64,000 nt of DNA from an uncultured Gammaproteobacteria bacterium (GTDB taxonomy: Bacteria > Patescibacteriota > Patescibacteriia > UBA11705 > JABHMO01): assembly GCA_964590105.1 (NCBI GenBank), contig CAZPYM010000001.1, positions 431,782 to 495,781 on the forward strand, written 5' to 3'. Position 1 is the stretch's first letter, and each line of letters starts with the position of its first letter. Shown piece by piece: positions 11,533-59,798 of the stretch. The notes beneath the pieces were generated by a model that was not told the origin of the DNA, ran no database searches, and saw only the letters and a program-made list of their open reading frames with translations. Both the position numbers and the translations under genes were made by a program.

Positions 11533-11581
11533 TAACTTTTGATCAATAATGTTCATTGCTCTATACAGTGGGAGGGAAATC

Positions 11582-28026: not shown

Positions 28027-28060
28027 CCGCCCATGGCAGACGCCGGGCGGCTTTGTTGTT
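28027..28060 (-). terminator. rho-independent terminator of the metallophosphoesterase cassette
   Basis: GCCGCCC...GGGCGGC stem (28027-28051); on the minus strand it is followed by CTTTTTTTTTGCC (A-tract 28013-28024 on plus). Confidence 0.6.
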
Positions 28061-28800
28061 CAACTTCCTTCATACAGTCGCTTGGTAAGAATACCGTCGA
28101 GATTGAGCTTTTTCATTTCAGCAACCGTTTCATCAATCCTGTACGAAACGCGCCGATACTCTGCCAAGAGCTTGTGGCGGAAAAAATCCACCACCATGTA
28201 ACAGGCGCGCGGGTCATCGTCGCGCGGCTGGCCGACGCTACCCACATTGATGGCGAACTTCGACGGGAAACGAACCTCCAGCGGCGAATGTGACATACCA
28301 AGCTTTACTAATCCATGCTTGATGTGGTAGATTGCCGGCTGATGAGTATGGCCAAAGAACAAAACCGGCGTCGCAACAGCCGTCAACTGCTGGCGGGCGA
28401 TATGTTCGTTGCGAATATACTCCCAGCCGTCAGGATCTGTCCAGTTCGCGTGAACCATTGAAATTCCCAGGTTGGGAATATCCATGGCCATTTCCAGTCC
28501 CCGCAAAAAGGCCAGATCATCAGCCTTGAGCATTTTGGCATTCTGCGCCATTGCCAACAACGCCGGGTAATTATGATTGGCCATGTTGCAGCCATGCCCC
28601 ACGCCAAAATCATGATTTCCCATGAGCGTCAGATTGCAATGCTCCCTGGCCCAAGCAATGCATTCCCGCGGAAACGGACCATAACCGGTCACATCGCCGA
28701 GGCAGTAGATCACATCAACGCCCATTGTGGCAATGTCTTTCGCAACGGCTCGCAGAGCCGGCCAATTGCTGTGAATGTCCGACAATATCGCCGCTCTCAT
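28060..28800 (-). CDS. calcineurin-like metallophosphoesterase (GC-rich cassette)
   Basis: Motifs DIHSN (D-x-H), LGDVTGYGP (GDxxDRG-like), LMGNHD (GNHD/E), FFGHTHQ; GC about 55%; SD AGGAGGA 5 nt upstream of ATG. Confidence 0.75.
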   Translation of the reverse strand: MRAAILSDIHSNWPALRAVAKDIATMGVDVIYCLGDVTGYGPFPRECIAWAREHCNLTLMGNHDFGVGHGCNMANHNYPALLAMAQNAKMLKADDLAFLRGLEMAMDIPNLGISMVHANWTDPDGWEYIRNEHIARQQLTAVATPVLFFGHTHQPAIYHIKHGLVKLGMSHSPLEVRFPSKFAINVGSVGQPRDDDPRACYMVVDFFRHKLLAEYRRVSYRIDETVAEMKKLNLDGILTKRLYEGS

Positions 28801-46747: not shown

Positions 46748-47131
46748 ATGAAAGAGCTCGGCCGCCATGTGTTGATTGAATTTTATGAATGCGCCACCGA
46801 GGCGCTGAACAACCTAGAATTCATTGAAGAACAAATGCTCGAAGCCGCCAGATTGACGGGCGCGACCATTGTCGGCAAAATCTTCCACCGATTCAGTCCA
46901 CACGGTGTTTCAGGCGCAGTGGTGATTGCTGAGTCGCACCTCACGATTCACACCTGGCCGGAATACGACTACGCGGCAGTTGATCTTTTCACCTGCGGAC
47001 CAACCGTTGATCCGTGGAAAGCTTTCACTCACCTGCAAACCGCAATCGGTTCCAAACGCACTTCTCAGACTGAGATCCGACGCGGGCTTTTTCCACAAAA
47101 CGTCAGCCACAAGCCCGGCGCTGACGGATGA
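46748..47131 (+). CDS. speH: S-adenosylmethionine decarboxylase proenzyme (small SpeH type), GC-rich cassette
   Basis: [11 protein letters not shown]..., self-processing site region ...[11 protein letters not shown]; perfect SD AAGGAGGTG; GC about 52%. Confidence 0.8.
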
Positions 47132-47156
47132 CTGGCGATAATTAATCGCCCAATTT

Positions 47157-47196
47157 TCAAAAAGCTGCATCTTCACAGAGCAGCTTTTTCTTTTAC
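47157..47196. terminator. bidirectional intrinsic terminator between speH (+) and cysS (-)
   Basis: AAAAAGCTGC-atcttcacagag-GCAGCTTTTT with A-tract and T-tract on both sides. Confidence 0.65.
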
Positions 47197-48575
47197 CTTT
47201 TTTTTCTTAGTTTACTGTTGTCGGCCATATCATCTATAATCCAGCCGGCTTCTTCTATCTGCCGGCGAAATTCATCCGCCTTTTCCCATTTTTTGTTTGC
47301 TCTGGCTTTGTTTCTCTCCTGCAAAAGCGCTTCAATCTCCGCGGGAATATCCACCTGCTCTTCGACCGCTTTTTCCAGGCCCAAACCCAATATTTTATCG
47401 AATTCAATGAGTGTGGCTCGTTTATCAAAATCTGAAATCGGCGCCTTGAAAACTTCCCAGGCCACGGCCACGGCCTGCGGCATAGACAAGTCATTATTCA
47501 CATATTCCACGAATCTCTTTAATAACCCCTGATCAACCTGACCGACTTGTTTTCCTAAATCAATAAATTTATTTTTCATTTTTTCCCAAATATGGCTGGC
47601 ATTTTCTATTGCCTCCCAACTAAAATTCAACTTGCTGCGATAATGAGATGACAAGCAGAAAAAACGGTAAACAACAGGATCAAAACCTTTTTGCTCAAAT
47701 GTTTCCAGCGTCACAAAATTGCCTTCTGATTTTGCCATTTTTTCTTCATCATTAACAATTAAAAATTCTCCATGCAGCCAGTAACGAACAAATTGTTTGC
47801 CGGTCGCCGCTTCGCTCTGCGCGATTTCATTTGTATGATGCACCGAAACATGATCAATGCCGCCGGCATGAATATCAATTGTTTCACCGCAATATTTCAT
47901 GCTCATGGCCGAACATTCTAGGTGCCAGCCGGGAAATCCAACGCCCCAGGGACTTTCCCACTCTTGTTGCCTTTTGCCGGGAGTAGCGGAAAATTTCCAA
48001 AGCGCAAAATCAGTTGGATTTTTTTTCTCAATATTTGTTTCCACGCGCGCGCCTTCTTCCTGGCCTTCGAGATTGAGTCTAGCCAGGTCTGCGTAACTGG
48101 GAAACTTTGACGTATCAAAATATATTCCGTCAGAAATTTTATATGTATATCCTTTTTTCTCCAATGTCTTTACTAATTCAATCTGTTCATTGATATGAGC
48201 AGTCGCCCGAGCCCAGATATCCGGTGCCAAGATATTTAATTCATCAAGATCATTCTTAAATGCTTCCGTATAAAATTCCGCGATTTCTCTGGCGGTTTTC
48301 ATTTCCAGACGAGCGCTCTTTTCAATTTTGTCTTCACCTTCATCGCTGTCACTGGTCAAATGTCCGACATCAGTTATGTTGATCACATGCTTAACCTTAA
48401 AATCATTGAACAACAATGCCCTTTTTAAGATATCTTCAAAAATATATGTCCGCAAATTTCCAATATGCGCAAAATCATAAACCGTTGGTCCGCAAGCATA
48501 AAAAGTCACCTCTGCCGGATTCAGAGGCTTGAATTCTTCAATTTCTCTTGAGAGCGTATTGAATAGTTTCAGCAT
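47193..48575 (-). CDS. cysS: cysteine--tRNA ligase
   Basis: HIGN (HIGH-like) and KMSKS motifs, Zn-binding Cys residues, 460 aa. Confidence 0.88.
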   Translation of the reverse strand: MLKLFNTLSREIEEFKPLNPAEVTFYACGPTVYDFAHIGNLRTYIFEDILKRALLFNDFKVKHVINITDVGHLTSDSDEGEDKIEKSARLEMKTAREIAEFYTEAFKNDLDELNILAPDIWARATAHINEQIELVKTLEKKGYTYKISDGIYFDTSKFPSYADLARLNLEGQEEGARVETNIEKKNPTDFALWKFSATPGKRQQEWESPWGVGFPGWHLECSAMSMKYCGETIDIHAGGIDHVSVHHTNEIAQSEAATGKQFVRYWLHGEFLIVNDEEKMAKSEGNFVTLETFEQKGFDPVVYRFFCLSSHYRSKLNFSWEAIENASHIWEKMKNKFIDLGKQVGQVDQGLLKRFVEYVNNDLSMPQAVAVAWEVFKAPISDFDKRATLIEFDKILGLGLEKAVEEQVDIPAEIEALLQERNKARANKKWEKADEFRRQIEEAGWIIDDMADNSKLRKKR

Positions 48576-48595
48576 AGCCTTTCCCTAAATGTAAA

Positions 48596-48660
48596 TTCAC
48601 CAATTCGCTAATTCACTAATTCGCCAATTCACACTTCAATCACACCTCACAACTTTAACT
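48596..48660. repeat. octamer-word tandem repeat (NNNAATTC: GTAAATTC ACCAATTC GCTAATTC ACTAATTC GCCAATTC ACACTTC...)
   Basis: Read directly; similar words at 39811-39850 and 44480-44520. Confidence 0.6.
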
Positions 48661-48667
48661 TATTTTC

Positions 48668-49819
48668 TCAATCCCCGCAAGTGCCTCCAAACCAACCCAG
48701 CGACACGAATATTTTCACTGTTCCACTCGCTTCACGCAGATTTTCAAGAGCTTTGCCGACCACAGTTCCCGCACTGACTGCTTTCATGCCATAGCCCGAC
48801 CGCGAAGAAGCTGTAATAAAATCGCCGGCTTCAATCGGCCCATTTTCATTGGTAACTTTTACCGGCACAATTCCGCTAAGGGCCACCGGCGCGCCGTTTA
48901 TTTCACTGGCATTGTTTAGTGTCATTGACGGCGCGGTTGAAACAACGCCCACCACTGTTTTATTTTTACTGGTTGCTTTTATTAAGTTCAGATTGTCATC
49001 AACAGCCACAATATCACCGCCGGCTACCGGATCTGACATAGTAATCGCTTCCGCCAAGTCGCCGCAACCATTACAGCCGCTACTCACGTTGAGCATACCA
49101 TTAATCTCAACATTGCCCTGAAAACTACCCGCCCAAGTATTTCCTTGCGCCTTGATGCCAATATCATTTAGCCCAAGCTCAACAGCGCTATTAAGAACTT
49201 TATAAGTCGGTGCGCTATAATTATACGCGCCGAGAGCAACCGGCTCAGTCTGCGTATCCGAATTTTTAAAAAAGTTTAACTGTGTTATGGATGCTGGTTT
49301 ATTATCCTTGTACAACTTGGCCTGCATGGCCATTTTATCCGCTCCAAGATTCATACCGGTTCCCTTACCATAGATATTCGCGCCCAGAAAAAGGCTATAA
49401 GCAAACATACCGGTACCGCTCAAATCAGAATTCAAAAAATATCCACCATATGAATTACTGCCACTTATAGAGGAATAATATCCAGAGTAACCACTTTTAT
49501 TAGCGGTAACATAGGCTCCCCGAGAAACAGTATTTATATTAACCTCTGAACCATTGCTATTATTTTTCGTACGAATAGCTCCCGAAGTACCAATCCCCAC
49601 TCCAAGTCCATATGAATTGCCTGGATCAATTCCGCGCAAACCGAGCGAACCGGTCTTGGACTGATTATTGGAACTCACATTGAGAGGCGCCTCGACATTT
49701 CCCGCGGGCGGAGTATTACTAGGCTCAGTCCAGGCAAAGGCCCGATTTATTACCAGGACGCAACCAAAAATAGCTATCAAAAATATAAAATTAACAACCA
49801 ATAACATTTTGCTCTTCAT
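48668..49819 (-). CDS. secreted Gly/Ser/Asn-rich hypothetical protein
   Basis: Signal peptide; low-complexity G/S/N/Y-rich central region; C-terminal ...SLGWFGGTCGD. Confidence 0.5.
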   Translation of the reverse strand: MKSKMLLVVNFIFLIAIFGCVLVINRAFAWTEPSNTPPAGNVEAPLNVSSNNQSKTGSLGLRGIDPGNSYGLGVGIGTSGAIRTKNNSNGSEVNINTVSRGAYVTANKSGYSGYYSSISGSNSYGGYFLNSDLSGTGMFAYSLFLGANIYGKGTGMNLGADKMAMQAKLYKDNKPASITQLNFFKNSDTQTEPVALGAYNYSAPTYKVLNSAVELGLNDIGIKAQGNTWAGSFQGNVEINGMLNVSSGCNGCGDLAEAITMSDPVAGGDIVAVDDNLNLIKATSKNKTVVGVVSTAPSMTLNNASEINGAPVALSGIVPVKVTNENGPIEAGDFITASSRSGYGMKAVSAGTVVGKALENLREASGTVKIFVSLGWFGGTCGD

Positions 49820-50041
49820 ATTTTTTTTATTAATTTATTTCAGTCAAATTGTACCACTATTTAACTATTATGCCAATTTGTGCTATAATTCTTGTAAGGA
49901 TTTAAAACAAAATTCTGAATTAATTGTTCAGATCGCATTGTAAATAATATTGCCTTCCACCTTCATCACTTCTAGCTCTTTATATTTTCCATTCGGCATC
50001 CGCCGGACAAGTCTTCGTCAATCTTCTTTAATCATCTTTAT

Positions 50042-50563
50042 ATGCAAAACTTTTTCACTTGGACTTTGGTCATCTTTTTAATCGTTCTAATCAGCGTTAT
50101 TAGTTTTCTAACCGGCATTTATATCGGCAAAAGCAAACTGTCCGAAAGCAAAATCGCGCAGGAAAAACAACTTTACGTTGAAAAAATCAGCGAAAAAATA
50201 AAATCTCTGCCGGGCATGAGCATCATGGAATCATTGCCTGACGATATTATTCACGGCCGGATTATTTCAATCTCCGGAAACAAACTGCAAATAGCCGCTG
50301 AACCAATGTCAATCAATGAGTTACTGCAAGAAAACCCAGTCGAATACCAGCTGCAAATTACAGATAAAACAAAAATTTATTACTTAAAAATCAAAGATAA
50401 TATTGAACTGCCAGCTGATCCGACAACAATGCCAAACTTAATAACCGAACAAGCATTATCTTTTGAAGACATCAAAGTCAATGAGCAAATCGCCGTAATC
50501 ATTGATCCCGCGCAAAAATCAAATCCGGTGATAGACGCCATAGAAATAAAAGTCAATAGATAA
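50042..50563 (+). CDS. hypothetical N-terminally anchored membrane protein
   Basis: N-terminal TM; no SD; plus-strand gene in a minus-strand block. Confidence 0.4.
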   Translation: MQNFFTWTLVIFLIVLISVISFLTGIYIGKSKLSESKIAQEKQLYVEKISEKIKSLPGMSIMESLPDDIIHGRIISISGNKLQIAAEPMSINELLQENPVEYQLQITDKTKIYYLKIKDNIELPADPTTMPNLITEQALSFEDIKVNEQIAVIIDPAQKSNPVIDAIEIKVNR

Positions 50564-50604
50564 AAAACAAAAACCGCCAGAGTTCAACTGGTGGTTTTTT
50601 ATTT
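50562..50604. terminator. bidirectional intrinsic terminator (CCGCCAG-agttcaa-CTGGTGG, A-tract before and T-tract after)
   Basis: Read directly; lies between convergent genes. Confidence 0.55.
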
Positions 50605-50610
50605 GGAAAA

Positions 50611-51714
50611 TTATTTTTCTTTTTCAAATTCTTCAAGCAATTTTTTCTGACGTCGGCTCAGTTTTTTCGGCACATCAATTTCAATTATTACATACAAGTC
50701 TCCCCTGCCCGCGGAATGAAGATATGGCACCCCCTTGCCCCGCAAACGAAATTTATTTCCCGGTTGAGTGCCGGCCGGGACTTTGAGTTCTATGGCGCCG
50801 TCAAGAGTTTCAACTTCTGTTTTACAACCAAGCGCCGCTTCGGCAAAGCTGATTTTTTTTGCCGTATAAACATCATTGCCGTGTCGTTCAAAATTCTTGT
50901 CCGACAACACGCGGATCTGAACATACAAATCTCCCGACTGACCGCCATATGGCGCCGCGTTTCCCTGCTCTCTCATTTTCAAACCTGAATCATTTTCTAT
51001 TCCGGCAGGAACCTGCAGGTCAATCACTTCTTTTTTCTTGGTAATTCCTTGACCATGACATTTGGTGCAAGGCGTTTGCGCTTTTTTACCTTCGCCTCCG
51101 CAATCAGGACAAGTGGTTGCCGTCTGAATTGCTCCAAGTATAGTTTGTTGTACTCGGCTCACCCGCCCCTGGCCGCCGCATTTCTGACAAGTGATAATTT
51201 TTGTTCCGGGTTCTGCCAAATTGCCGTGGCAGTGGTCGCATTTTACAGTTTTATAAAGCTCAACTTGCTTTTTTGTTCCAAAAACAGCTTCCTTGAAATC
51301 TATTTGCAGATCGATCTGAATGTCTTCACCAAAATTTTGAGATCGGCTCTGCCCCCGGCCACCGCCAAATCCGAATATGTCGCCGAAAATATCGCCTAGA
51401 TCAAGTCCGCCGAAATCAAAATTCGCGCTTCTACTGCCGCCGCCGCCACGAGCCTGCTTCATAAAATCATCCCAATTCATGCCGCCGCCAAATCCGCCCA
51501 TCTGGTCGAATGTTGAGCCGTACTGATCATACTTCTGGCGCTTTTCCACATTGCCAAGGACTTGATATGCTTCATTTATTTCTTTGAATTTTTTTTCATC
51601 TCCGGTTTGTTTATCAGGATGGTATTGGTGCGCCAGCTTACGAAAAGCGCGCTTGATCTCATCTTGATCAGCGCTTTTATCGACATTTAGAATTTTATAG
51701 TAATCTTTACCCAT
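50611..51714 (-). CDS. dnaJ: molecular chaperone DnaJ
   Basis: J domain HPD (YHPDKQ), G/F-rich linker, four CxxCxGxG zinc-finger repeats. Confidence 0.9.
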   Translation of the reverse strand: MGKDYYKILNVDKSADQDEIKRAFRKLAHQYHPDKQTGDEKKFKEINEAYQVLGNVEKRQKYDQYGSTFDQMGGFGGGMNWDDFMKQARGGGGSRSANFDFGGLDLGDIFGDIFGFGGGRGQSRSQNFGEDIQIDLQIDFKEAVFGTKKQVELYKTVKCDHCHGNLAEPGTKIITCQKCGGQGRVSRVQQTILGAIQTATTCPDCGGEGKKAQTPCTKCHGQGITKKKEVIDLQVPAGIENDSGLKMREQGNAAPYGGQSGDLYVQIRVLSDKNFERHGNDVYTAKKISFAEAALGCKTEVETLDGAIELKVPAGTQPGNKFRLRGKGVPYLHSAGRGDLYVIIEIDVPKKLSRRQKKLLEEFEKEK

Positions 51715-51734
51715 ATATAATCATGACACTGCAA

Positions 51735-52322
51735 TTATTTGACTAAACGGTAATAATAATCTCTCTCTTTATCAACTTTATCACTTTCAATTTCTACTTC
51801 CTCCACTTGTTTAAATCCAAAACTTTGTAAAAATTCCAATGACTTCCCGCGGAAAAATTTAAATATCTGCTCCAACTCAAGATCTTTTTTAACCGGCTCA
51901 AATATATTAGCATTTAGATAACCTTGCCCGATTCTAGCCTCACCGCCAGACTTTAATACTCTTTTAATTTCCTTAATAATTTTTTCGACCTGCTCTCTGT
52001 CTTCCAAAATACTAACCGGCCCGCCCATGGAAAGAATAAGATCAAAGGATTCATCCTCAAAAGGCATTTGAGTGGCGTCCGCCCGCACAAAGCCTTCAGT
52101 TTTCAATTTAGGTTCTTTAATATCAATAGCAATGATACTAATATCCTTTTCATCTTTATAACATTCAGCCAAACTGCTGTCGCCGGCACCGACGTCAAGA
52201 GTTTTCTTGTTTTTCAGAAATTTTTTTGACACTCCCAGATTGCGTTCAATTCGTTCCGCATATTCTTGATGCGACGATTTTTGTTCCGGTGCTTCAAACA
52301 TATTAAATATTTTTATTTTCAA
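51735..52322 (-). CDS. class I SAM-dependent methyltransferase
   Basis: Motif I LDVGAGDS. Confidence 0.55.
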   Translation of the reverse strand: MKIKIFNMFEAPEQKSSHQEYAERIERNLGVSKKFLKNKKTLDVGAGDSSLAECYKDEKDISIIAIDIKEPKLKTEGFVRADATQMPFEDESFDLILSMGGPVSILEDREQVEKIIKEIKRVLKSGGEARIGQGYLNANIFEPVKKDLELEQIFKFFRGKSLEFLQSFGFKQVEEVEIESDKVDKERDYYYRLVK

Positions 52323-52737
52323 AATTATTAAATTCCTTTAATTGTTTTTTTACTTCGCTATCAGTCATGAAAAAGGTTGCTTGTTCATCCGGATCAATCG
52401 GAACAGGTTTCGAGGCGGAAAAATTGAATTCCTCGGACTTGATACATTTAATTTTCTTTTGCCTGGCCAGATACCTGATTTCCTTGTCCGACGTAACCAG
52501 AACATACATGGAAGGATTATCGCACTTATCAATCAATCGGGCAATACCGTCATCAGCATCGCCTGTGAATATCACCTGAACAAAATTTGTGTTCAAGTCA
52601 TGCGGACACCGGCCATCAAAAATAATTATGGCTGTTTTTCTCCTTGTTCGGCAAAATTCATTCACCGCGTTAATCAGGCCTTCTTTTTCCGGAAAGTCAG
52701 TTTGATACAGCAAGTTGTAGCCATCTATTAAGTACAT
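52303..52737 (-). CDS. NYN/YacP-like PIN-fold domain protein (predicted RNase)
   Basis: YLIDGYNLL...IIIFDGR...VTSD conserved acidic residues typical of the YacP/NYN family. Confidence 0.55.
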   Translation of the reverse strand: MYLIDGYNLLYQTDFPEKEGLINAVNEFCRTRRKTAIIIFDGRCPHDLNTNFVQVIFTGDADDGIARLIDKCDNPSMYVLVTSDKEIRYLARQKKIKCIKSEEFNFSASKPVPIDPDEQATFFMTDSEVKKQLKEFNNFENKNI

Positions 52738-52810
52738 GTATAATAATTTTGCAAAATACTTATTATTATCGCAATATATTAGCTAAATTTAGACAAAACC
52801 ATCATTACTA

Positions 52811-52839
52811 TTGACTTTTTATGTAAAATATAATATAAT
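52811..52839 (+). promoter_or_regulatory. sigma70 promoter (TTGACT-17-TATAAT)
   Basis: TTGACT 52811-52816; TATAAT 52834-52839. Confidence 0.55.
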
Positions 52840-52910
52840 GTATTGATTTAATCTGTTCATTTCACTAACCGTCTCAGGCAGCTATGCCACAAATAGCAAA
52901 GGGAGAAAAC

Positions 52911-54035
52911 ATGGGAAAGAAAGCGTGGACATTCGCAATTCTGCTGGGGCTTGTAGCTTCTATTTCCGTACCATGGATTGTTATCAAGATCGTTGCCAAG
53001 ACGCAGAGCCCCGAGACGCACGAGCCGACGATGATGGAGAACGGCGACAACCCGGTAGAGTCCGGCCAGGACGAGCCCACAATGATGGAAAACAGCGACA
53101 ACCCGGTAGAGTCAAGCCAGGACGAACCCACGACTCTTCGCCTGCCGATGTACGTACAAACGACGGTCCAGGCGCGCCTCCTCACGATGGAGGAACTGGC
53201 CTTGGACTTTCCGGAAAACTATGACATTGAACAACGGGGTGACTATCACAGAATCGCCAAGAACTGCACGGCGACCGAACTGGCCACCAAGGCTGATTGC
53301 CTGCCGCTCACCGGCTGGTTCAAGAAGGCTTACTTGAAGTCTGACGGTTCCATTACCGTGGACTTCCAATGCAATCCAAACGACTCGCGAATGTGTACCG
53401 TGCTTTTGCGCGGACCTGTAAGCGATGGAACTGTCTACGGCTGTGGTCTTCCGGATGCGGCCCTCGAAGATATCCTCGTCATGGACTTACTTGGCGCCGG
53501 ATATAGCCTTCTGAAAGACGGGGCAGTCGAATACATCCGCTACGGCGGCAAAGACCTAACCGGCGGCCACCATTCATTCTTCATCAAGGACGGCCTGATC
53601 TATGGTAGGTACGGAACCGATGAAGAGCTCGTGCGCCGCGCTGACGGCTCGTTTGTCCGCGAAAGCGGCTCGTTCGCCGAGCAGATCAGGAAAGAGGCTC
53701 AGGCTAAGAAAGTGCTGGACTTTCTCGGCTCCGGATACTCCATGCGCTACGACGCCGTGTTCGAGTTTATCCAATACGACAAGCAGGACGTGGTGCCTCG
53801 CGGCTACCATTACTACATCCTCCGCGATGATCGGATCTACGGCATTCTCGGCGCGACCGAAGAGGAAGTTCTCGCCAACCGGCCGAAGATTCCGCCAGAA
53901 AAAAGGGATATGATCGGTCAATCATGTCTTTGTCCGGATCTCGGACTTGGGACATGGGTGGAACTCGGGTACAAAGAGCTGGTCTGCGTTCATCTGCCGG
54001 AAAGAGGTCCCATCTGCCATTCCAACTGCTTCTAG
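52911..54035 (+). CDS. secreted hypothetical repeat protein (GC-rich cassette; alternative upstream start 52884)
   Basis: Signal peptide MGKKAWTFAILLGLVASISVPWIV; tandem EPTMMENxDNPVESxQD repeats; duplicated about 55-aa module (LLGAGYSLLKDGAVEYIRYGGKD... / FLGSGYSMRYDAVFEFIQYDKQD...); SD GGGAGA before 52911; GC about 57%. Confidence 0.65.
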   Translation: MGKKAWTFAILLGLVASISVPWIVIKIVAKTQSPETHEPTMMENGDNPVESGQDEPTMMENSDNPVESSQDEPTTLRLPMYVQTTVQARLLTMEELALDFPENYDIEQRGDYHRIAKNCTATELATKADCLPLTGWFKKAYLKSDGSITVDFQCNPNDSRMCTVLLRGPVSDGTVYGCGLPDAALEDILVMDLLGAGYSLLKDGAVEYIRYGGKDLTGGHHSFFIKDGLIYGRYGTDEELVRRADGSFVRESGSFAEQIRKEAQAKKVLDFLGSGYSMRYDAVFEFIQYDKQDVVPRGYHYYILRDDRIYGILGATEEEVLANRPKIPPEKRDMIGQSCLCPDLGLGTWVELGYKELVCVHLPERGPICHSNCF

Positions 54036-54101
54036 CCAAACTCGCCCAGTCCCAACATCCGTTGGGCAAGCCCCGGGCAAATTCAACAAAATAATTGAAA
54101 G

Positions 54102-54135
54102 GAGTTCAAGCCTCACCGCTTGAGCTCTTTTTTAT
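54102..54135 (+). terminator. rho-independent terminator
   Basis: GAGTTCAAGC-ctcaccgc-TTGAGCTC followed by TTTTTTATT. Confidence 0.6.
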
Positions 54136-54137
54136 TA

Positions 54138-54151
54138 GCGTAGTTTCGCGT
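54138..54151 (+). repeat. 14-bp motif GCGTAGTTTCGCGT (copy 1; a GTTTCGCGT half-copy again at 54165-54173)
   Basis: Identical 14-mer at 57928-57941, the other end of the hrcA-grpE-dnaK operon. Confidence 0.8.
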
Positions 54152-54181
54152 TCTGTTTTACACGGTTTCGCGTATTCCTCT

Positions 54182-54463
54182 TTATTTTTCTTCCTTAAAT
54201 CCAATTTCCTTATTTAATTCCGGCGACTCTTCAATCACGCCATACTTTTCTTCATACTTTTTCAAATTGTCAGTCAAGGCGGCTACCATTTTTTTGTAGT
54301 GCCCCGGATTGGAAATCAGTTTGCCGACCACCTTACCGGACGGTGGCAAGACATTGGCAAACATCAGGATAAATTCTTCCTTTGTATGCTGTACCTGCAT
54401 CAGATTGGTGTATTCTCCGCCGGCAATGTTGTCGCTGATCTGAATTTTTTGTTGTTCTGTCAT
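54182..54463 (-). CDS. small conserved hypothetical protein at the distal end of the dnaK operon
   Basis: 93-aa ORF tightly linked to dnaK; no motif recognised. Confidence 0.5.
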   Translation of the reverse strand: MTEQQKIQISDNIAGGEYTNLMQVQHTKEEFILMFANVLPPSGKVVGKLISNPGHYKKMVAALTDNLKKYEEKYGVIEESPELNKEIGFKEEK

Positions 54464-54528
54464 ATATAATATTTCTCTATATTATTAATTCCGCGTAAAC
54501 CCGCGTTAAATCCGCTGAGTTCACGTCT

Positions 54529-56457
54529 TTATTTCTTTTCCTCAAAATCCGCATCCTGCGTTTTGTCGTCAGATCCTGAGCTTGCCGAAGCGTCACTATC
54601 CTTTCCGGTTCCCTTCTCGCTCTTCTCTCCCTGTTTCCCCTGTTCCGCCTGCGCCTTGTACATTGCCTCGCCCGCCTTCATCGCCACCTGATTAATTTCT
54701 TCCAGTTTTTTCTTGATCGCTTCAATATCTTCTCCGTCCTTAATCTTTTTAAGTTCTTCGACTTTTGTCGTTAAATCTTTTTTTATTTCCTCGGAAATTT
54801 TATCACCGGATTCCTTCATCATTTTTTCAGTTGTATAGCAAATACTCTCTGCCTGATTTTTGATTTCAATTGCTTCTTTCTTTTTCTTGTCTTCATCAGC
54901 ATGCTCCTCCGCGTCTTTTTTCATTTTTTCAATTTCTTCTTTGCTTAAACCGGACGACGCTGTTATTGTAATGGCCTGCTCTTTATTTGTCGCTTTGTCT
55001 TTAGCTTTTACATTCAGAATGCCATTGGCATCAATATCAAAGCTGACTTCAACTTGAGGCACGCCTCTCGGAGCCGGCGGAATTCCGTCGAGAATAAATC
55101 TACCAAGTGTTTTATTGCCCTCGGACATTTCACGTTCGCCTTGAAGCACATGAATCTCAACCGTATTCTGATTATCAGCGGCGGTTGAAAAGACCTGTGA
55201 TTTCGAAGCCGGAATTGTCGTATTTTTTTCAATAAGTTTTGTCATTACTCCTCCCAGAGTTTCGATCCCAACTGAGAGCGGTGTAACATCAAGCAAAAGC
55301 ACATCTTTAACATCTCCCTGCAAAACTCCAGCCTGAACAGCCGCGCCCATAGCCACCACTTCATCAGGATTAACGCCCACGTGAGGTTTTCGTTTGAAAA
55401 ACTCTTCCACTTTTTTTAAAACAAGCGGCATGCGGGTCATCCCGCCGACCATCAGAACTTCTTCCAGATCTTCAACTTTTAGACCGGCGTCTACTAAAGC
55501 TTTTTTGCACGGCTCCAAAGTTCGGTCAACCAGAGAGGCAACTAATTCCTCAAGTTTTGCCCTGCTGACTTTTTTTACCAAGTGAGTCGGATTCCCGCTG
55601 GCATCCTGCGCAATAAAAGGCTGGTTAATTTCCGTTTCTTGCGCCGTTGACAATTCAATCTTGGCTTTTTCCGCCGCTTCTTTCACTCGCTGCAAAGCCA
55701 TTTGATCTTTACTCAGGTCAACGCCGGTTTCAGATTTGAATTCTTTAATTATCCAGTCAATTATTACTTTATCAAAATCATCGCCGCCCAAATGAGTATC
55801 TCCATTGGTAGATTTCACCTCAACAGTGTCTTCGCCAACATCTAAAATTGAAATATCAAAAGTTCCGCCGCCAAGATCATAAACCGCGATTTGCTCGCCT
55901 TTTTTCTTGTCAAAACCATAGGCCAAAGCTGCTGCAGTGGGCTCATTTATAATACGGCGAACTTTCAATCCGGCAATTTCACCAGCATCTTTTGTTGCTT
56001 GTCTTTGCGCGTCATTAAAATACGCCGGCACGGTAATTACCGCTTCCTCTATTTTTTCACCCAATTTTTCTTCCGCATCCGATTTCATTTTTTGGAGTAG
56101 CATTGCTGAAATTTCCTGTGGTGTATATTCTTTGTCTGCCATTTTGACTTTTACGCCGTCACCCGACTGAACTAGTTCATAAGGAAGCGTTTCTTTGTCT
56201 TTTTGGACTTCATCATCTGAGAAGCGAAGCCCGATCATTCGTTTAATTGAAAAAACTGTATCTTTTGGATTGGTTACTGCTTGTCTTTTCGCAGAAAGCC
56301 CCACCAATCTTTCTCCTGTTTTGCCGATTGCAATTACGGAAGGCGTAGTTCTATTGCCTTCTTTATTTTCTAAAATTTTTGGCTTTCCGCCCTCAACAAT
56401 TGCCATGCAACTGTTAGTTGTGCCCAAATCGATTCCTAGAATTTTTGACATATTCAT
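54529..56457 (-). CDS. dnaK: molecular chaperone DnaK (Hsp70)
   Basis: [25 protein letters not shown]-type motifs, EEVD-less C-terminus, 642 aa. Confidence 0.93.
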
Positions 56458-56503
56458 TTTTAGAAACCGGGAACAGGAAATTGGAAATCAGGGTTTAGCG
56501 CTG

Positions 56504-56545
56504 TTACTTTCTACCCTAGTTTCCAGTTTCAAGTTTCCAATTTCG
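56504..56545. repeat. heptamer tandem repeat, family AGTTTCY (CCCTAGTTTCCAGTTTCAAGTTTCCAATTTCGTTTTA) between grpE and dnaK
   Basis: Near-copy of 25709-25745. Confidence 0.7.
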
Positions 56546-56547
56546 TT

Positions 56548-57144
56548 TTATTTATTATTGACTACTACCTTCGCCGCCTGAACACATTTTTTGTTCAGCA
56601 TATATCCAGGTCGAATTTCTTTTATAACTTGGCCATCTTTTTCTTGCTCTGAAGGACGCTCCATAGTTCTGCCGGAGACAGCCTGTGGCGTGCTTGCCGG
56701 AGCGGCTGAATTTTCCACCGTTCCACCGGAGGCAAATTGTGGAGCGCTTGCGGGAGCGGCTGAATCTTCCACCGCCTCGTGCAGACCAGGATCAAATTTT
56801 TCTCCGACAGTCTTGATGGTCTCAACTCCATTTTGCGCCAGGAAATCCTCCAGTTGCTTTTTGATGTAACCGAAACCGATTACCCATGGACTATCTTTTT
56901 CATTTTCCGGAATCTGACTAAACGCCGCTTTGAAATTATCCAAAACCGGCAATATTTCCATGATCAAATTCGCATTTGCGTATCGAACATAGTCTATTCT
57001 CTTTGCATCAAATTCTTTTACTAAATTCTGATAGTCAGCTTGTGCTCTTTTCCAGCCGTTTAGGTACTCTTCACATTTTTGCTTAAGATCTTCTTCCTTA
57101 CTTTTACCTTTAACCTTTGGTCTTTTAACTTCTTTTTCTGCCAT
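56548..57144 (-). CDS. grpE: nucleotide exchange factor GrpE (with an in-frame internal tandem duplication)
   Basis: GrpE coiled-coil and beta-domain motifs; C-terminal AAPASAPQFASGGTVENSAAPASTPQAVSG repeat. Confidence 0.85.
   Translation of the reverse strand: MAEKEVKRPKVKGKSKEEDLKQKCEEYLNGWKRAQADYQNLVKEFDAKRIDYVRYANANLIMEILPVLDNFKAAFSQIPENEKDSPWVIGFGYIKKQLEDFLAQNGVETIKTVGEKFDPGLHEAVEDSAAPASAPQFASGGTVENSAAPASTPQAVSGRTMERPSEQEKDGQVIKEIRPGYMLNKKCVQAAKVVVNNK
56684..56774. repeat. about 54-bp period tandem duplication inside grpE (TGTGGNGNGCTTGCSGGAGCGGCTGAATYTTCCACCG twice)
   Basis: Read directly, 56684-56720 against 56738-56774. Confidence 0.7.
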
Positions 57145-57149
57145 ATATT

Positions 57150-57842
57150 TTATGTTAATAATTTTACTGACTCTCGCACCAAGGCATAATTTTTTTGATA
57201 ATTCATGCGCATTGGACCGATAAGAGCAATTATTCCTTTATATTTTCCTAATTGGTATTTAAAAACTACTAAACTACAATCACAACCGAGCGGATTATTT
57301 GAACCGATCAGAACCTCCGCCTCTTGAATCGCCTTTTTATCAAGCTCAATAATTTTTGAATCCAGGCGATCAATTACCGAAGACAGGTTGACTACCAAGT
57401 CTGATCGCTGAAATTCCGGCTGGGAAAAAATATTTGACAGGCCGGTGTAATAATTGTCGCATTCTGCAAAGGTGACCATTACACCCTGCTTTGACAGTTC
57501 GGCAATTTTTTGGGCGAAATTTTTTATTTTAAGCCGATCTTCTGTTTGTTGTTTTTTTATTTCAAGTAATATTTTGTTTTCTAGCTCGGTTAATTGCTTT
57601 GTTTTATCCAAATAATTTTCAACATAAAACTGATAAGCTTTTTCTGTCGGAACCCGTCCGGCAGAAGTGTGCGGCTGGAAAACGTAACCTTCTTTTTCCA
57701 AAGCAACTAATTCATTTCTCACCGTTGCAGGGCTAAGCTTTTCTTTCATTTTGGCGACTAAAAAACTTGAGGCCAAAGGTTTTGCATCTTTTATAAATGC
57801 CTCAATAATTCGTTTTAATATTTTTCTTTGTCTTTCGTTCAT
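57150..57842 (-). CDS. hrcA: heat-inducible transcription repressor HrcA (ORF-track start 57860 would be TTG; ATG at 57842)
   Basis: N-terminal winged HTH (RQRKILKRIIEAFI...PATVRNELVALEKEG), HrcA C-terminal domain; CIRCE immediately upstream. Confidence 0.8.
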   Translation of the reverse strand: MNERQRKILKRIIEAFIKDAKPLASSFLVAKMKEKLSPATVRNELVALEKEGYVFQPHTSAGRVPTEKAYQFYVENYLDKTKQLTELENKILLEIKKQQTEDRLKIKNFAQKIAELSKQGVMVTFAECDNYYTGLSNIFSQPEFQRSDLVVNLSSVIDRLDSKIIELDKKAIQEAEVLIGSNNPLGCDCSLVVFKYQLGKYKGIIALIGPMRMNYQKNYALVRESVKLLT

Positions 57843-57864
57843 ACTAAACCATTCTAACAAACAA

Positions 57865-57891
57865 TTAGCACTCCTGTCAAGTGAGTGCTAA
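57865..57891. promoter_or_regulatory. CIRCE operator (TTAGCACTC-N9-GAGTGCTAA), perfect consensus, with TTGACA -35 inside the spacer and TAGAAT -10 just downstream on the minus strand
   Basis: TTAGCACTC 57865-57873, spacer CTGTCAAGT, GAGTGCTAA 57883-57891; minus strand reads TTGACA (57875-57880) then TAGAAT (57851-57856). Confidence 0.9.
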
Positions 57892-57927
57892 TTTGTTACT
57901 TTTTTCGCTTTTGCGTTGTAAGGGTTC

Positions 57928-57941
57928 GCGTAGTTTCGCGT
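57928..57941 (+). repeat. 14-bp motif GCGTAGTTTCGCGT (copy 2, preceded by GGGTTCGCG)
   Basis: Identical to 54138-54151. Confidence 0.8.
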
Positions 57942-59798
57942 CTACTTCACTACCCCATCTTTCAATTTCCCCTTGCTGTCATAAATAAGTTTCGTCGTCA
58001 CCGTTCCTAAATCTTTTCGTATCAGCTTGCCAGTGGCTTTGTCTGCTCCGGAAATAGTTAAATCAGTCAGGAGAGCAGGATATGTCCCCTTTTGTCCAGC
58101 CGTCGGAATAATGCCTACCTCAAAAGCAAATCCAATATTTTCCGGATTAACCGGAACCTTGGAAATCTGCCAGGTTAATGTTTTGGTTGCATCGTCATAT
58201 TTAATCGGGTCGCCGACCGGCACATTGGTTTTTTCATTCCAGCTGACATTGAAGGGCAGGGTGGCGGAAACCGTAACGTTCTCAACATCATTAATATCAT
58301 TAATCATTTTGGCAAAAATCCAATATTTGGTTTCCTTGCCAACTCGCGGTGGAATTGAGCCGCGACCGAGCTGATCGCCGGTTTTCGCGTAATACATTGG
58401 ATAGGCTTGGACTGATAAATTGCTATTCAATTGAAATCCCAAAGTTGGCGCAAAGAATCCCGCCTCTTGCCCTTCGGCTTTAAACCCATACGACAAGGCG
58501 CTGTTCAAAGTTCTCGACTGACTGCCGGCCACATATTCCCTGGTGCCAATACTTAACTTGATCTCACCTGATTCGCCGGGTTGGATCAAGGCCAGCCGCG
58601 GAATCTCTTGAAAATCCCAGGCAATCATTTGCTCTTCAAATCGACCATTATCCATCTGAATATTTTTCAAATCCCAATAATCATCTGATAAATCAAGCTT
58701 AAATGAGACGTTCTCAATAGTATGGCCGCCCTTATTAAAATATGAAATCATTGCCTCAACTGACTGGCCGGGAGTAATTGTCCCATCGCCCGAGGCGCTA
58801 AATTTGACTTCAAATTTTGGATCGAAAATTTCAATTGAATAAACTTTTTGCGCCTGCAACAATTCCTGGCCGTTCGGGCTTTTCCAGATTAATTCGAAAG
58901 TTAAATCAGCTGACTCCCGGTCTGTTTCAGCTGCCAAGCCAAAGGCCAGACTGTATTTTTCTTCGTGATCCAAATCAATTTGCCAAGTGTAATCATCTTG
59001 CTGAAGCGGTTTGCCGGCAAATGAGGTTCGCAAAGATAATTGTTGATAATCGGTGGAAGCATTATTATTGGCTATCTCGCCGGTAATCTCAATCTTCTGA
59101 TTTTTTATCATTTGAGCCGGCGTATCAGTCGTGAGAACCAGGAAACTACTACCAATGTTGTAACGGAAAAATTTTGTTTTGCTGAATTGTCCCCACAGCC
59201 GTTCGCCCTTTTTGTCGGTTTTGTAAAAGCTGGCATTAACCACCAAATTATAATCCTCTCCAATACTGCCAAATGTTCTGACTTTTATTAAGATCTTGCC
59301 ATTAGCCCCTGGCCCCAGATCGCCAAGATGAAGAGTGTTGTGATTAAAATCATAACCGGCGGCGGAAACATCCAACAATTCAAAATAGCCTTCGTATTTA
59401 AAGCTCAAATTTACTTCTTGAAGAGGAAATTTATTTTCATTGGAATAATCAACCTGAAAAACTGTTTCCTGTCCGCTGATCAAAGCCTCCCTCGGACCAG
59501 ATACTTCCAGCTGGAAATTATCAGAAAAATAATGAAATCCGCCCCAGAGCCAAAATATATTCAAGCCAATCAAAACCAAAACTCCGGCCGCGATTAACAG
59601 ATCCATTACCAAATGTTTTTTATTGAATTTATATCTTACATTCCACCGCTGTTTTAATCTTTTGTGCGGATATGTAATTATATTGACAATCACATTCTTT
59701 TTGCCCGCTTTGTCCGCCGCTTTGATAATGTCTTCCTCAATTTTTTCCAAATCATCGCCATTGGAATCGACTTCGAATGTTTTAATTTTCTTTCCCAT
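57942..59798 (-). CDS. large hypothetical membrane-anchored protein with an extracellular beta-rich domain
   Basis: N-terminal cytoplasmic segment, TM (LLIAAGVLVLIGLNIFWLWGGF), long extracellular region; no family recognised. Confidence 0.5.
   Translation of the reverse strand: MGKKIKTFEVDSNGDDLEKIEEDIIKAADKAGKKNVIVNIITYPHKRLKQRWNVRYKFNKKHLVMDLLIAAGVLVLIGLNIFWLWGGFHYFSDNFQLEVSGPREALISGQETVFQVDYSNENKFPLQEVNLSFKYEGYFELLDVSAAGYDFNHNTLHLGDLGPGANGKILIKVRTFGSIGEDYNLVVNASFYKTDKKGERLWGQFSKTKFFRYNIGSSFLVLTTDTPAQMIKNQKIEITGEIANNNASTDYQQLSLRTSFAGKPLQQDDYTWQIDLDHEEKYSLAFGLAAETDRESADLTFELIWKSPNGQELLQAQKVYSIEIFDPKFEVKFSASGDGTITPGQSVEAMISYFNKGGHTIENVSFKLDLSDDYWDLKNIQMDNGRFEEQMIAWDFQEIPRLALIQPGESGEIKLSIGTREYVAGSQSRTLNSALSYGFKAEGQEAGFFAPTLGFQLNSNLSVQAYPMYYAKTGDQLGRGSIPPRVGKETKYWIFAKMINDINDVENVTVSATLPFNVSWNEKTNVPVGDPIKYDDATKTLTWQISKVPVNPENIGFAFEVGIIPTAGQKGTYPALLTDLTISGADKATGKLIRKDLGTVTTKLIYDSKGKLKDGVVK

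What the first reader, a model, noticed from the sequence alone, without database searches (positions are those of the whole stretch)
52811..54135. GC-rich secreted repeat protein with duplicated about 55-aa modules
A signal peptide is followed by tandem acidic EPTMMENxDNPVESxQD repeats, then two copies of a Y/G-rich module (…GAGYSLLKDGAVEYIRYGGKD… / …GSGYSMRYDAVFEFIQYDKQD…) and a Cys-containing C-terminus. GC is about 57%, with a consensus promoter and terminator. It is inserted between the NYN-domain gene and the end of the dnaK operon. I recognise no homology. It may be an immunity- or lipoprotein-like module or a surface receptor-binding protein.
Basis: partly seen in the sequence, partly recalled or inferred. 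Interest (0 to 1): 0.55.

Follow-up and report, generated by a model that had tools for sequence, protein, structure and literature searches.

The report
Foreign membrane-anchored repeat protein in swappable slot
A GC-rich, horizontally acquired gene sits backwards inside the heat-shock gene cluster of an ultra-small (Patescibacteria) bacterium and encodes a membrane-anchored protein built from two copies of an uncatalogued 78-residue domain; it is expressed from a promoter and leader that related genomes reuse for quite different surface-protein genes.

Summary
Window 52911-54035 (+) is an intact 374-aa ORF with a near-consensus promoter, a Shine-Dalgarno site and a strong terminator. Its GC is 55.6% (GC3 68%) in a 41% GC genome. 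It carries a 51-nt acidic tandem repeat and a duplicated module (z = 18 against shuffles). The true module period is 78 aa, not about 55.

Pfam, NCBIfam, PHROGs, PADLOC and PDB sequences give nothing. An exhaustive search of 1.84 billion proteins finds only about 22 small relatives. They are lipoproteins in Patescibacteria-like contigs or small proteins in phage-like contigs.

The gene lies between dnaK-DUF3467 and NYN-dnaJ. In close relatives this slot holds unrelated GC-rich secreted or membrane genes. In distant relatives it is empty.

The promoter and a 23-nt invariant leader are conserved upstream of this unrelated cargo in three genomes. That was unexpected.

Best reading: foreign cargo in a conserved expression site, encoding an anchored, outward-facing binding protein. 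It may work like the Ltp phage-exclusion lipoproteins. Function is inferred, not shown. Interest is moderate.

The parts
52811..52839 (+). Sigma-70-type promoter TTGACT-17-TATAAT. It lies in an AT-rich, host-like intergenic region (18-27% GC).
   Evidence: 11 of 12 consensus matches. Conserved at the DNA level in L007 (TTGACA-17-TATAAT, 12 of 12) and in L013. GC.
52877..52910 (+). Conserved 5' leader with invariant blocks GGCAGCTATGCC and AATAGCAAAGG. The second block overlaps the Shine-Dalgarno site (GGGAG at 52901-52905).
   Evidence: The same two blocks stand in the same order directly upstream of unrelated ORFs in L007 (2912-2945) and twice in L013. These are the only 4 copies in 481 kb of fetched DNA. 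There is no Rfam match, and the alignment shows only a 4-bp hairpin with no covariation.
52911..54035 (+). Coding sequence, 374 aa, GC 55.6%, GC3 68%.
   Evidence: An identical protein is called in ENA, JGI and NCBI assemblies.
52911..52997 (+). N-terminal membrane anchor or signal sequence (aa 1-29). It has a KK n-region, a 20-residue hydrophobic core and no lipobox Cys.
   Evidence: Kyte-Doolittle maximum 2.3 over aa 7-28. AlphaFold models a helix over aa 3-31 with pLDDT 84-92.
53020..53131 (+). Tandem 51-nt repeat, 2.2 copies. It encodes the acidic, Pro-containing spacer EPTMMENxDNPVESxQD, which is predicted to be disordered.
   Evidence: TRF score 175 with 88% matches. Protein alignment. 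pLDDT is below 50. The segment has 12 D/E against 2 K/R.
53145..53450 (+). Middle region (aa 79-180) with 5 Cys. It has no detectable homologue and is modelled with low confidence.
   Evidence: The only hit in the exhaustive search is P0007, which is repeat-inflated and spurious: 34 bits per repeat over 30 repeats. pLDDT is 27-52.
53463..53696 (+). Module unit 1 (aa 185-262; conserved core aa 197-244): a helix followed by a five-strand beta meander.
   Evidence: Internal duplication z = 18. Homologues at E 1e-26 to 1e-4. pLDDT above 90.
53697..53900 (+). Module unit 2 (aa 263-330; conserved core aa 275-323).
   Evidence: Same evidence as unit 1. A one-residue insertion (VVPRG) is shared with the second module of P0011 (VSPRG). 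This suggests the two-module layout is old.
53901..54032 (+). C-terminal Cys-containing beta-hairpin motif: EEEVLxNRP ... SC ... GLGTWVxLG ... CVHLPERG.
   Evidence: 49% identity over 51 aa to the C-terminus of P0023, which is the first gene in the same slot of L007. pLDDT is 70-83. A natural variant, G53926A, changes the conserved Cys339 to Tyr.
54097..54137 (+). Intrinsic terminator hairpin with a U-tract. It lies between the convergent genes X and DUF3467.
   Evidence: dG -21.7 kcal/mol, z = -6.35.
52303..52737 (-). Left flank of the slot: NYN_YacP gene, followed by a methyltransferase gene and dnaJ.
   Evidence: Pfam PF05991, E 9e-9. Synteny.
54182..54463 (-). Right flank of the slot: DUF3467 gene, the last gene of hrcA-grpE-dnaK-DUF3467.
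   Evidence: Pfam PF11950, E 1.4e-16. It occupies the same position in the insert-free loci L017 and L019.

Best explanation
The gene is foreign cargo carried in a conserved expression site.

Shown by the data:
- The genome is a Patescibacteria genome. Its nearest species representatives are Kuenenbacteria and Falkowbacteria.
- The interval between hrcA-grpE-dnaK-DUF3467 and NYN-methyltransferase-dnaJ is a recurrently remodelled slot.
- In the three closest genomes an AT-rich, host-like promoter plus an invariant leader (GGCAGCTATGCC ... AATAGCAAAGG-ATG) points antisense to the operon. It drives unrelated genes of about 54-57% GC for membrane or secreted proteins.
- In this window the cargo is a 374-aa mosaic protein. 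It has a membrane anchor, a disordered acidic spacer made by a 51-nt duplication and a Cys-containing orphan region.
- After these come two copies of a 78-aa helix plus beta-meander module and a Cys-containing C-terminal hairpin.
- The module belongs to a rare, uncatalogued family. It is found as lone antisense lipoprotein genes in Patescibacteria-like contigs and as small genes in phage-like contigs.

Inferred:
- The protein sits N-in, C-out in the membrane.
- The spacer holds the tandem modules away from the membrane, and the modules bind a macromolecule at the cell surface.
- The most likely role is a phage-derived, Ltp-like surface shield, acting by superinfection exclusion or receptor masking.
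- The cargo is exchanged by recombination between the conserved flanks.

Confidence is about 0.85 for the anatomy, foreignness and slot. It is about 0.3-0.35 for the phage-exclusion function.
For: Autonomous unit:
- Promoter, Shine-Dalgarno site and terminator.

Foreign composition:
-.
- Codon usage is uncorrelated with host genes (r -0.09 to 0.04). It correlates at r 0.43-0.64 with the other GC-rich genes in the window and with slot cargo in L007 and L013.

Real junctions:
- Three assemblies show the same junctions.

Slot:
- L017 and L019 have dnaK-DUF3467-NYN tightly packed.
- L013, L014, L016, L018, L020 and L007 have 1.1-2.2 kb of different content. This includes antisense lipoproteins and, in L013 and L007, 54-57% GC cargo.
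- Only the L007 cargo is related to this protein (z 10-25).

Conserved expression site:
- Promoter and leader are conserved upstream of unrelated ORFs.

Family:
- 24 hits among 1.84 billion representatives. About 22 of them are true relatives.
- Many have lipoboxes or TM anchors. None has a Pfam domain.

Structure:
- Module pLDDT is above 90.

Phage link:
- P0010 lies beside a terminase large subunit (phrog_2666, E 1e-15).
- P0019 and P0022 lie in arrays of small co-directional ORFs with YopX, Terminase_5/HTH_23, Apyc1 and RNA ligase.

Architectural analogy:
- Ltp has a membrane anchor, a low-complexity spacer and acidic repeat domains that bind the phage tape-measure protein (PMC3952083).
- The modules here are net acidic: 26 D/E against 19 K/R.
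Against: - There are no prophage genes, integrase, tRNA or flanking direct repeats near the gene.
- Nothing matches in PHROGs, PADLOC, INPHARED phages or IMG/VR.
- The phage association rests on 3-4 poorly annotated metagenomic contigs.
- Those phage-like contigs are 28-40% GC, so they are not the donors of this 56% GC gene.
- The single-module phage versions lack signal sequences, so the module is not envelope-specific in itself.
- A conserved native promoter and leader argues for a host-regulated function rather than a classic moron.
- No fold or sequence similarity to Ltp or any other exclusion protein was found.
- Topology was judged only by hydrophobicity and AlphaFold.
Confidence: 0.4

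Rival explanations
1. Host-attachment factor of an episymbiont. The anchored protein projects its tandem modules and Cys-containing domains to bind the surface of the partner cell. The slot is variable because partner specificity changes.
For: - Same anatomy: anchor, spacer and repeat domains.
- The slot carries lineage-specific secreted or lipoproteins in every close relative.
- The cargo diverges faster than its flanks: 30-49% identity against 62-70% for NYN and DnaK between the window and L007.
- The cargo GC of about 55% in three genomes of 40-47% GC could reflect acquisition from a common, GC-richer partner organism.
- HGT into Patescibacteria from diverse groundwater donors is documented (PMC12455944).
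Against: - There is no similarity to any known adhesin domain.
- Signal-less single-module relatives in phage-like contigs are hard to reconcile with an adhesin-specific domain.
- No partner organism or donor was identified.
Confidence: 0.25
2. Glycan-binding or wall-binding lectin-like protein. Each module is a propeller-blade-like beta meander. Proteins with one, two or three modules would oligomerise into a closed ring, as two-blade lectins do, and bind cell-wall or extracellular polysaccharide.
For: - The module motif GGYHSFFLKDGxxYGxLG resembles the RCC1-like blade motif of BLIP-II on four blades. The whole-sequence E-value is 0.0078 and no single stretch is significant.
- The modules are rich in aromatic residues and Gly.
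- Family members have 1, 2 or 3 modules.
Against: - All structural scores are below significance.
- Each unit has a 13-20-residue helix that propeller blades lack.
- No oligomer prediction could be run.
Confidence: 0.12
3. Secreted or anchored proteinaceous inhibitor of a hostile enzyme such as a lysozyme, protease or beta-lactamase-like enzyme. This would be analogous to the tandem-domain inhibitor BLIP or to the lipoprotein lysozyme inhibitors.
For: - Tandem alpha+beta domains of about 76-78 aa in an exported protein recall BLIP. This rests on my recollection of the BLIP architecture and was not tested.
- There is a weak motif resemblance to BLIP-II.
- Many relatives are small lipoproteins.
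Against: - No target enzyme is encoded nearby.
Confidence: 0.08
4. Functionless passenger. Recently acquired foreign DNA happens to keep an open frame behind a resident promoter, or the locus is an assembly artefact.
For: - The gene is an orphan at the full-length level. Among 5.8 billion clusters only itself is found.
- A natural variant destroys a conserved Cys.
- The middle region has no homologue and a low pLDDT.
Against: - The 374-codon frame is intact, with a Shine-Dalgarno site and a terminator.
- The modules keep the family's conserved residues and fold confidently.
- The C-terminal motif is conserved with the positional homologue in L007 even though the DNA has diverged.
- Sequence is identical over 12.7 kb in an independent assembly, and the same slot architecture occurs in MAGs from other studies.
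Confidence: 0.05

Closest known systems
Ltp-type superinfection-exclusion lipoproteins (Streptococcus thermophilus phage TP-J34)
   Same: Three-part design: membrane anchoring, a low-complexity spacer, then tandem repeat domains exposed on the cell surface. The repeat domains are acidic. The family is phage-associated (PMC3952083; here).
   Different: There is no sequence or fold similarity. The anchor here is a TM helix, not a lipid. The spacer is acidic, not serine-rich. The modules are helix plus beta meander. The gene is not in a prophage. No exclusion activity is known.
Phage morons (independent promoter-gene-terminator units spread by HGT)
   Same: A single gene with its own promoter and terminator and a deviant base composition, inserted between two genes and transcribed independently of them (PMC3594210; here).
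   Different: It sits in a chromosomal housekeeping operon, not in a prophage. The promoter and leader are resident and conserved across genomes, and only the coding cargo is foreign.
RCC1-like beta-propeller blades, e.g. BLIP-II
Expression sites with exchangeable surface-protein cargo (integron cassettes; variable surface-protein expression loci). This comparison is drawn from general knowledge.
   Same: A fixed promoter and leader drives interchangeable, unrelated genes for surface proteins. In L013 the leader is repeated before each of two cargo genes.
   Different: No integrase, attC-like repeats, silent cassette archive or invertible element was seen in the window or loci. Only three genomes were examined.

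Membership tests
Any curated protein family (Pfam-A, NCBIfam, PHROGs, PADLOC) | Score above the family threshold, or at least E < 0.01 | tested here: not met
   The best Pfam hit is E 0.24, 11.6 bits against a cutoff of 27. NCBIfam gives none, PHROGs none and PADLOC none. Scanning the 33 module instances singly gives no shared Pfam family.
Unnamed 78-aa module family (P0008-P0029) | Core motif Y-x-I-x3-GA-x2-Y-L-x3-G-x-R-x2-GG-x-H-x-F-x2-DG-x2-YG-x-LGA-x2-E-x-V, with near-invariant His and two Gly | tested here: met
   Two copies, at aa 197-244 and 275-323. phmmer E-values of 2e-26 to 6e-4 to 22 relatives among 1.84 billion proteins. Alignment A1 shows H37, G48 and G51 conserved.
Unnamed 78-aa module family (P0008-P0029) | 78-aa period with a linker helix when modules are repeated | tested here: met
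   The offset between the two cores is 78 aa, the same as in P0008 (cores at 41, 119 and 197). Helix and strand pattern.
Bacterial lipoproteins | Lipobox L-[AS]-[GA]-C at the end of the signal peptide | tested here: not met
   The first Cys is residue 119. The homologues P0011, P0012, P0013 and P0023 do have lipobox-like sequences.
Sec-exported or signal-anchored proteins | Positively charged n-region followed by a hydrophobic h-region | tested here: met
   MGKK followed by 20 hydrophobic residues, Kyte-Doolittle up to 2.3. AlphaFold helix over aa 3-31.
Sec-exported or signal-anchored proteins | Signal peptidase I cleavage site (small residues at -3 and -1) | tested here: inconclusive
   The only weak candidate is IVA|K after residue 29. 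No dedicated predictor was available.
Ltp-type superinfection-exclusion proteins | Sequence or fold homology to the Ltp repeat domain | tested here: not met
Ltp-type superinfection-exclusion proteins | Encoded in a prophage and blocks DNA injection | not testable with these tools
   There are no prophage genes in the flanks. Activity needs an experiment.
Phage moron | Own promoter and terminator, and deviant composition | tested here: met
Phage moron | Located within a phage or prophage genome | tested here: not met
   The flanks are dnaK-DUF3467 and NYN-methyltransferase-dnaJ.
Classical genomic island | Integrase, tRNA target and flanking direct repeats | tested here: not met
   There is no tRNA in the 64-kb window. 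No meaningful flanking direct repeats. No integrase-like ORF nearby.
RCC1-like / BLIP-II beta-propeller | Seven tandem blades closing a propeller, with significant profile or fold similarity | tested here: not met
Known RNA family for the conserved leader | Rfam covariance-model match, or covarying base pairs | tested here: not met
   The best Rfam hit has E 8.2. RNAalifold finds 4 invariant pairs and no covariation.

The most novel reading that the evidence does not exclude
The dnaK|NYN slot may be a dedicated cassette-exchange expression site in a clade of Patescibacteria. A fixed promoter and a 23-nt invariant leader (GGCAGCTATGCC ... AATAGCAAAGG) would act as the regulatory element and as the recombination anchor. 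Behind it, foreign GC-rich genes for surface proteins would be swapped in and out. The 78-aa module would be a new fold shared between these cargo proteins and phage proteins. Ultra-small episymbionts would then have a previously undescribed way to renew their surface repertoire from a foreign gene pool.
Probability: 0.2. Interest if true: 0.7.

Novelty: new variant of a known kind. Interest (0 to 1): 0.45.

Why it matters
Patescibacteria live attached to other cells, have tiny genomes, and their surface proteins are almost entirely uncharacterised.

This locus offers three concrete things:
- A rare, confidently folding 78-aa domain that no curated family library used here (Pfam, NCBIfam, PHROGs, PADLOC) contains and that matches no solved structure. 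It links chromosomal surface proteins of these bacteria to phage-like elements.
- A clear case of foreign cargo (about 55% GC in 40-47% GC genomes) placed inside the otherwise conserved HrcA/CIRCE heat-shock cluster. There it splits dnaJ from dnaK transcriptionally.
- A conserved promoter and leader driving unrelated cargo in three genomes. This gives a short searchable motif for finding more such sites.

If the slot proves to be a general cargo-exchange site, it would bear on how reduced-genome symbionts vary their surface against phages or hosts. If not, this is one more laterally acquired hypothetical surface protein, which is common in these genomes.

Tried and rejected
1. P0007, a 2865-aa repeat protein (E 3e-40), as a homologue of the middle region. 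Rejected: each repeat gives only about 34 bits across a repeat junction, summed over 30 repeats.
2. Ribosomal protein L6 as a fold match. Rejected: Foldseek E 0.016, TM 0.1.
3. BLIP-II or RCC1 membership. Rejected: only a 14-residue hairpin motif matches.
4. Assembly chimera. Rejected: the same junctions appear in three assemblies, and there are analogous loci in other MAGs.
5. Classical island or IS insertion. No tRNA, integrase or target duplications were found.
6. Paralogues elsewhere in the window. The module HMM hits only this ORF.
7. Structured RNA in the leader. There is no Rfam hit and no covariation.
8. The conserved 3' flank as a cassette boundary. The ACGCGAAAC motif also follows another minus-strand gene at 57933. 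It therefore probably belongs to the ends of the minus-strand genes, not to the cassette.
9. Expanding the family came to little. Degenerate DNA patterns found 0, 0 and 1 true member. IMG/VR and INPHARED gave nothing.
10. The afdb50 fold library was unavailable.
11. The short peptides P0002-P0006 listed in the same 90% cluster are unrelated sequences. This is a clustering artefact.
Full report
**1. Observation**

The ORF at window 52911-54035 (+) encodes 374 aa.
- An in-frame ATG lies at 52884. The start at 52911 has a Shine-Dalgarno site (AAGGGAG, 5-nt spacer) and is the start used in public gene calls.
- The promoter TTGACT-17-TATAAT at 52811-52839 matches 11 of 12 consensus positions.
- The hairpin at 54097-54132 plus its U-tract folds at -21.7 kcal/mol (z = -6.35).
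- The CDS is 55.6% GC with GC3 68%. The six neighbouring genes are 36-45% GC with GC3 32-51%, and the window averages about 41%.
- The GC-rich tract runs from about 52980 to 54120. The promoter region is 18-27% GC and the membrane-anchor codons are 46%.
- A 51-nt unit is repeated 2.2 times at 53020-53131 and encodes EPTMMENxDNPVESxQD twice.
- The two modules align with score 108, against 24.7 +/- 4.6 for shuffles (z = 18). Their offset is 78 aa.
- Ten Cys residues fall in two clusters, at aa 119-178 and aa 339-373.

**2. Not an artefact**

- A 12.7-kb contig from another assembly is 100% identical to window 46935-59633 and spans both junctions.
- A 1.75-kb contig from a third assembly differs by one base, G53926A, which changes Cys339 to Tyr.

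**3. Homology**

- Pfam, NCBIfam, PHROGs, PADLOC and PDB sequences give nothing.
- The word-indexed 5.8-billion-cluster database finds only the protein itself.
- The exhaustive phmmer search of 1.84 billion representatives finds 24 proteins.
- One of them, P0007, is spurious: a 34-bit similarity multiplied by 30 repeats.
- The others are 83-273-aa proteins with one to three copies of the same module. Many have TM anchors or lipoboxes, and none has a Pfam domain.
- P0023 instead shares the C-terminal motif EEEVLxNRP ... GLGTWVxLG ... CVHLPERG.
- The module consensus is Y.I...GA..YL...G.R..GG.H.F..DG..YG.LGA..E.V, with a near-invariant His and two Gly.
- The family is very rare. Further searches added only P0030 and a second contig carrying P0013.

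**4. Structure**

- With the 23-sequence alignment, AlphaFold2 gives pLDDT above 90 for aa 180-320. It gives pLDDT 27-57 for aa 31-180.
- A trimmed model of aa 176-374 reaches mean pLDDT 88 and pTM 0.70.
- Each unit is a 13-20-residue helix followed by a hairpin and a three-strand meander. The C-terminal motif forms hairpins at pLDDT 70-83.
- Foldseek against PDB gives a best E of 0.016 with TM 0.1.
- Foldseek against viral models gives a best E of 1.6e-3 with TM 0.23.
- No known fold is matched.
- A profile search of PDB sequences shows only a 14-residue resemblance of GGYHSFFLKDGxxY to the blades of BLIP-II.
- The AlphaFold database library was unavailable. A match there remains possible.

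**5. Genomic setting**

- The order on the minus strand is hrcA-grpE-dnaK-DUF3467 | X (antisense) | NYN_YacP-methyltransferase-dnaJ.
- A canonical CIRCE element lies upstream of hrcA at 57865-57891.
- A scan of species-representative genomes with the NYN protein identifies the lineage as Patescibacteria. The nearest is a Kuenenbacteria MAG (L013; DnaK 91% identical), followed by Falkowbacteria MAGs.
- The order grpE-dnaK ... NYN-dnaJ is conserved in these genomes.
- In the two most distant loci (L017, L019), dnaK, DUF3467 and NYN are tightly packed.
- In the closer loci the interval is 1.1-2.2 kb and holds different things:
  - L013: an antisense 189-aa lipoprotein and an 84-aa membrane protein, 53-57% GC in a 40% GC genome.
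  - L014: an antisense 234-aa lipoprotein and a GIY-YIG gene.
  - L016 and L018: a predicted (TlyA/FtsJ-like) methyltransferase, joined in L018 by a small lipoprotein and a GIY-YIG gene.
  - L020: an antisense 207-aa protein.
  - L007: two sense-to-X genes of 54-55% GC. These are P0023 (lipobox plus the C-terminal motif) and P0014 (two modules).
- Only the L007 cargo is related to X (z 10-25). All other slot proteins are unrelated (z below 3.5).

**6. A conserved expression site**

This was not anticipated.
- The NYN-X intergenic region aligns between the window and L007 from the -35 box to the start codon, although the coding sequences behind it are largely unalignable.
- Two invariant blocks recur in the same order directly upstream of the start codon at four places. 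The blocks are GGCAGCTATGCC and AATAGCAAAGG, and the second contains the ribosome-binding site.
- The four places are the window, L007, and twice in L013, once before each of its two cargo genes.
- These are the only four copies in 481 kb of fetched DNA.
- L007 has a perfect 12 of 12 promoter and two strong terminators bracketing its cargo.
- The leader has no Rfam match and no covarying structure. It is absent from IMG/VR.
- The promoter and leader are therefore resident and constrained, and the GC-rich coding DNA behind them is what changes.
- Codon usage of X is uncorrelated with host genes (r -0.09 to 0.04). It correlates with the other GC-rich genes of the window and with the L007 and L013 cargo (r 0.43-0.64). 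This largely reflects shared GC3.

**7. Contexts of other family members**

- P0012, P0025 (named by NCBI as a hypothetical protein of a Pacebacteria MAG) and P0013 are lone opposite-strand genes among co-directional housekeeping genes.
- P0010 lies on a contig with a terminase large subunit (phrog_2666, E 1e-15).
- P0019 and P0022 are signal-less, single-module proteins. They lie in arrays of small co-directional ORFs with YopX, Terminase_5/HTH_23, Apyc1 and RNA ligase.
- P0009 lies among many small unannotated ORFs.
- The module thus occurs both in phage-like elements and as isolated chromosomal genes.
- In those contexts its GC is close to its surroundings. They are therefore not the direct donors of X.

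**8. Mechanism**

Shown:
- An independently transcribed, compositionally foreign gene in a recurrently remodelled slot behind a conserved promoter and leader.
- A protein with a membrane anchor, a disordered acidic spacer, an orphan Cys-containing region, two confidently folding modules and a conserved C-terminal hairpin.

Inferred:
- N-in, C-out topology.
- Projection of the modules from the membrane, and binding of a surface-encountered macromolecule.

The design parallels Ltp of phage TP-J34. Ltp has an anchor, a spacer and acidic repeat domains that bind the tape-measure protein of a superinfecting phage (PMC3952083). The single-gene unit resembles a moron (PMC3594210). Given the phage contexts of relatives, I favour a phage-derived surface-shield role at about 0.3-0.35. 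Rivals are:
- a host-attachment role (about 0.25);
- a lectin-like oligomer (about 0.12);
- an enzyme inhibitor (about 0.08);
- a functionless passenger (about 0.05).

HGT into Patescibacteria is already documented, at up to 13% of genome length (PMC12455944). Foreign cargo as such is therefore not surprising.

**9. Novelty and verdict**

- The gene is a laterally acquired hypothetical envelope protein, which is a known kind of thing.
- It has three features that are not catalogued: the 78-aa module family, the conserved leader and promoter with exchangeable cargo, and the placement inside the heat-shock cluster.
- I rate it a new variant of a known kind, with interest 0.45.
- The most novel reading not excluded is a dedicated cargo-exchange expression site for surface proteins in these symbionts (probability about 0.2).

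Noticed in passing
window 3539-4951 (-): A 470-aa ORF with GC 55.8% and GC3 66.7% sits between mutL (1548-3362) and mutS (5076-7643). It has no Pfam or PADLOC match. Its composition is almost identical to X, so it may be another foreign insertion splitting a conserved gene pair.
   Followed up: partly
window 11549-12010 (+): A 153-aa acidic ORF without a signal sequence, about 53% GC. It lies on the rare + strand between alaS and the tRNA-thiolase-like gene at 12101-13204. It is another GC-rich antisense islet and has no PADLOC match.
   Followed up: partly
window 28060-28800 (-) and 46748-47131 (+): Two further GC-rich genes (52.6% and 53.4% GC) with clear families: a calcineurin-like metallophosphoesterase and an S-adenosylmethionine decarboxylase. 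At least five GC-rich genes occur in this 64-kb window of a 41% GC genome.
   Followed up: partly
window 57865-57891 (-): A canonical CIRCE operator, TTAGCACTC-N9-GAGTGCTAA, lies upstream of hrcA. The cluster interrupted by X is therefore HrcA-regulated. With X and its terminator in place, NYN-methyltransferase-dnaJ must be transcribed separately from hrcA-grpE-dnaK-DUF3467.
   Followed up: partly
window 54143-54151, 54165-54173, 57933-57941 (-): The motif ACGCGAAAC occurs three times (0.47 expected by chance), each time just downstream of a minus-strand stop codon. Related copies follow dnaK in L007 and lie between ksgA-like and MFS genes in L010 and L011. It may be a 3'-end or terminator-associated motif.
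   Followed up: partly
window 53926: A natural G-to-A variant in one assembly (L001) changes Cys339 to Tyr. This is the Cys conserved with the positional homologue P0023 and is likely half of a hairpin disulfide.
   Followed up: partly
L014 1522-1830 (+) and L018 5612-5911 (+): Small GIY-YIG-type genes (about 100 aa, MK.YFTYI..CSDG.FYTG...) lie inside the same dnaK|NYN slot in two relatives. They could be homing-type elements that contribute to remodelling of the slot. The assignment is from the sequence motif only.
   Followed up: no
L013 5395-5445 and 5780-5830 (-): The two cargo genes of the Kuenenbacteria slot share the leader and also their first seven codons (MNLI[N/S]K). This points to a local duplication or recombination at the 5' end.
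   Followed up: partly
L035 4873-9499: In a Pacebacteria contig the family member P0025 sits antisense between a PPDK_N fragment and a separate PEP-utilizers fragment, together with two unannotated ORFs. This may be an insertion into a split pyruvate phosphate dikinase or PEP synthase gene.
   Followed up: no
window 50042-50563 (+): A 173-aa membrane-anchored protein on the + strand, downstream of dnaJ. It is conserved in position and sequence (37-40% identity) in L013 and L014 and has no Pfam family.
   Followed up: no
protein cluster of P0001: The 90% identity cluster that holds X also lists 44-48-aa peptides (P0002-P0004, P0006) that are unrelated in sequence. This looks like a clustering artefact in the database.
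   Followed up: no
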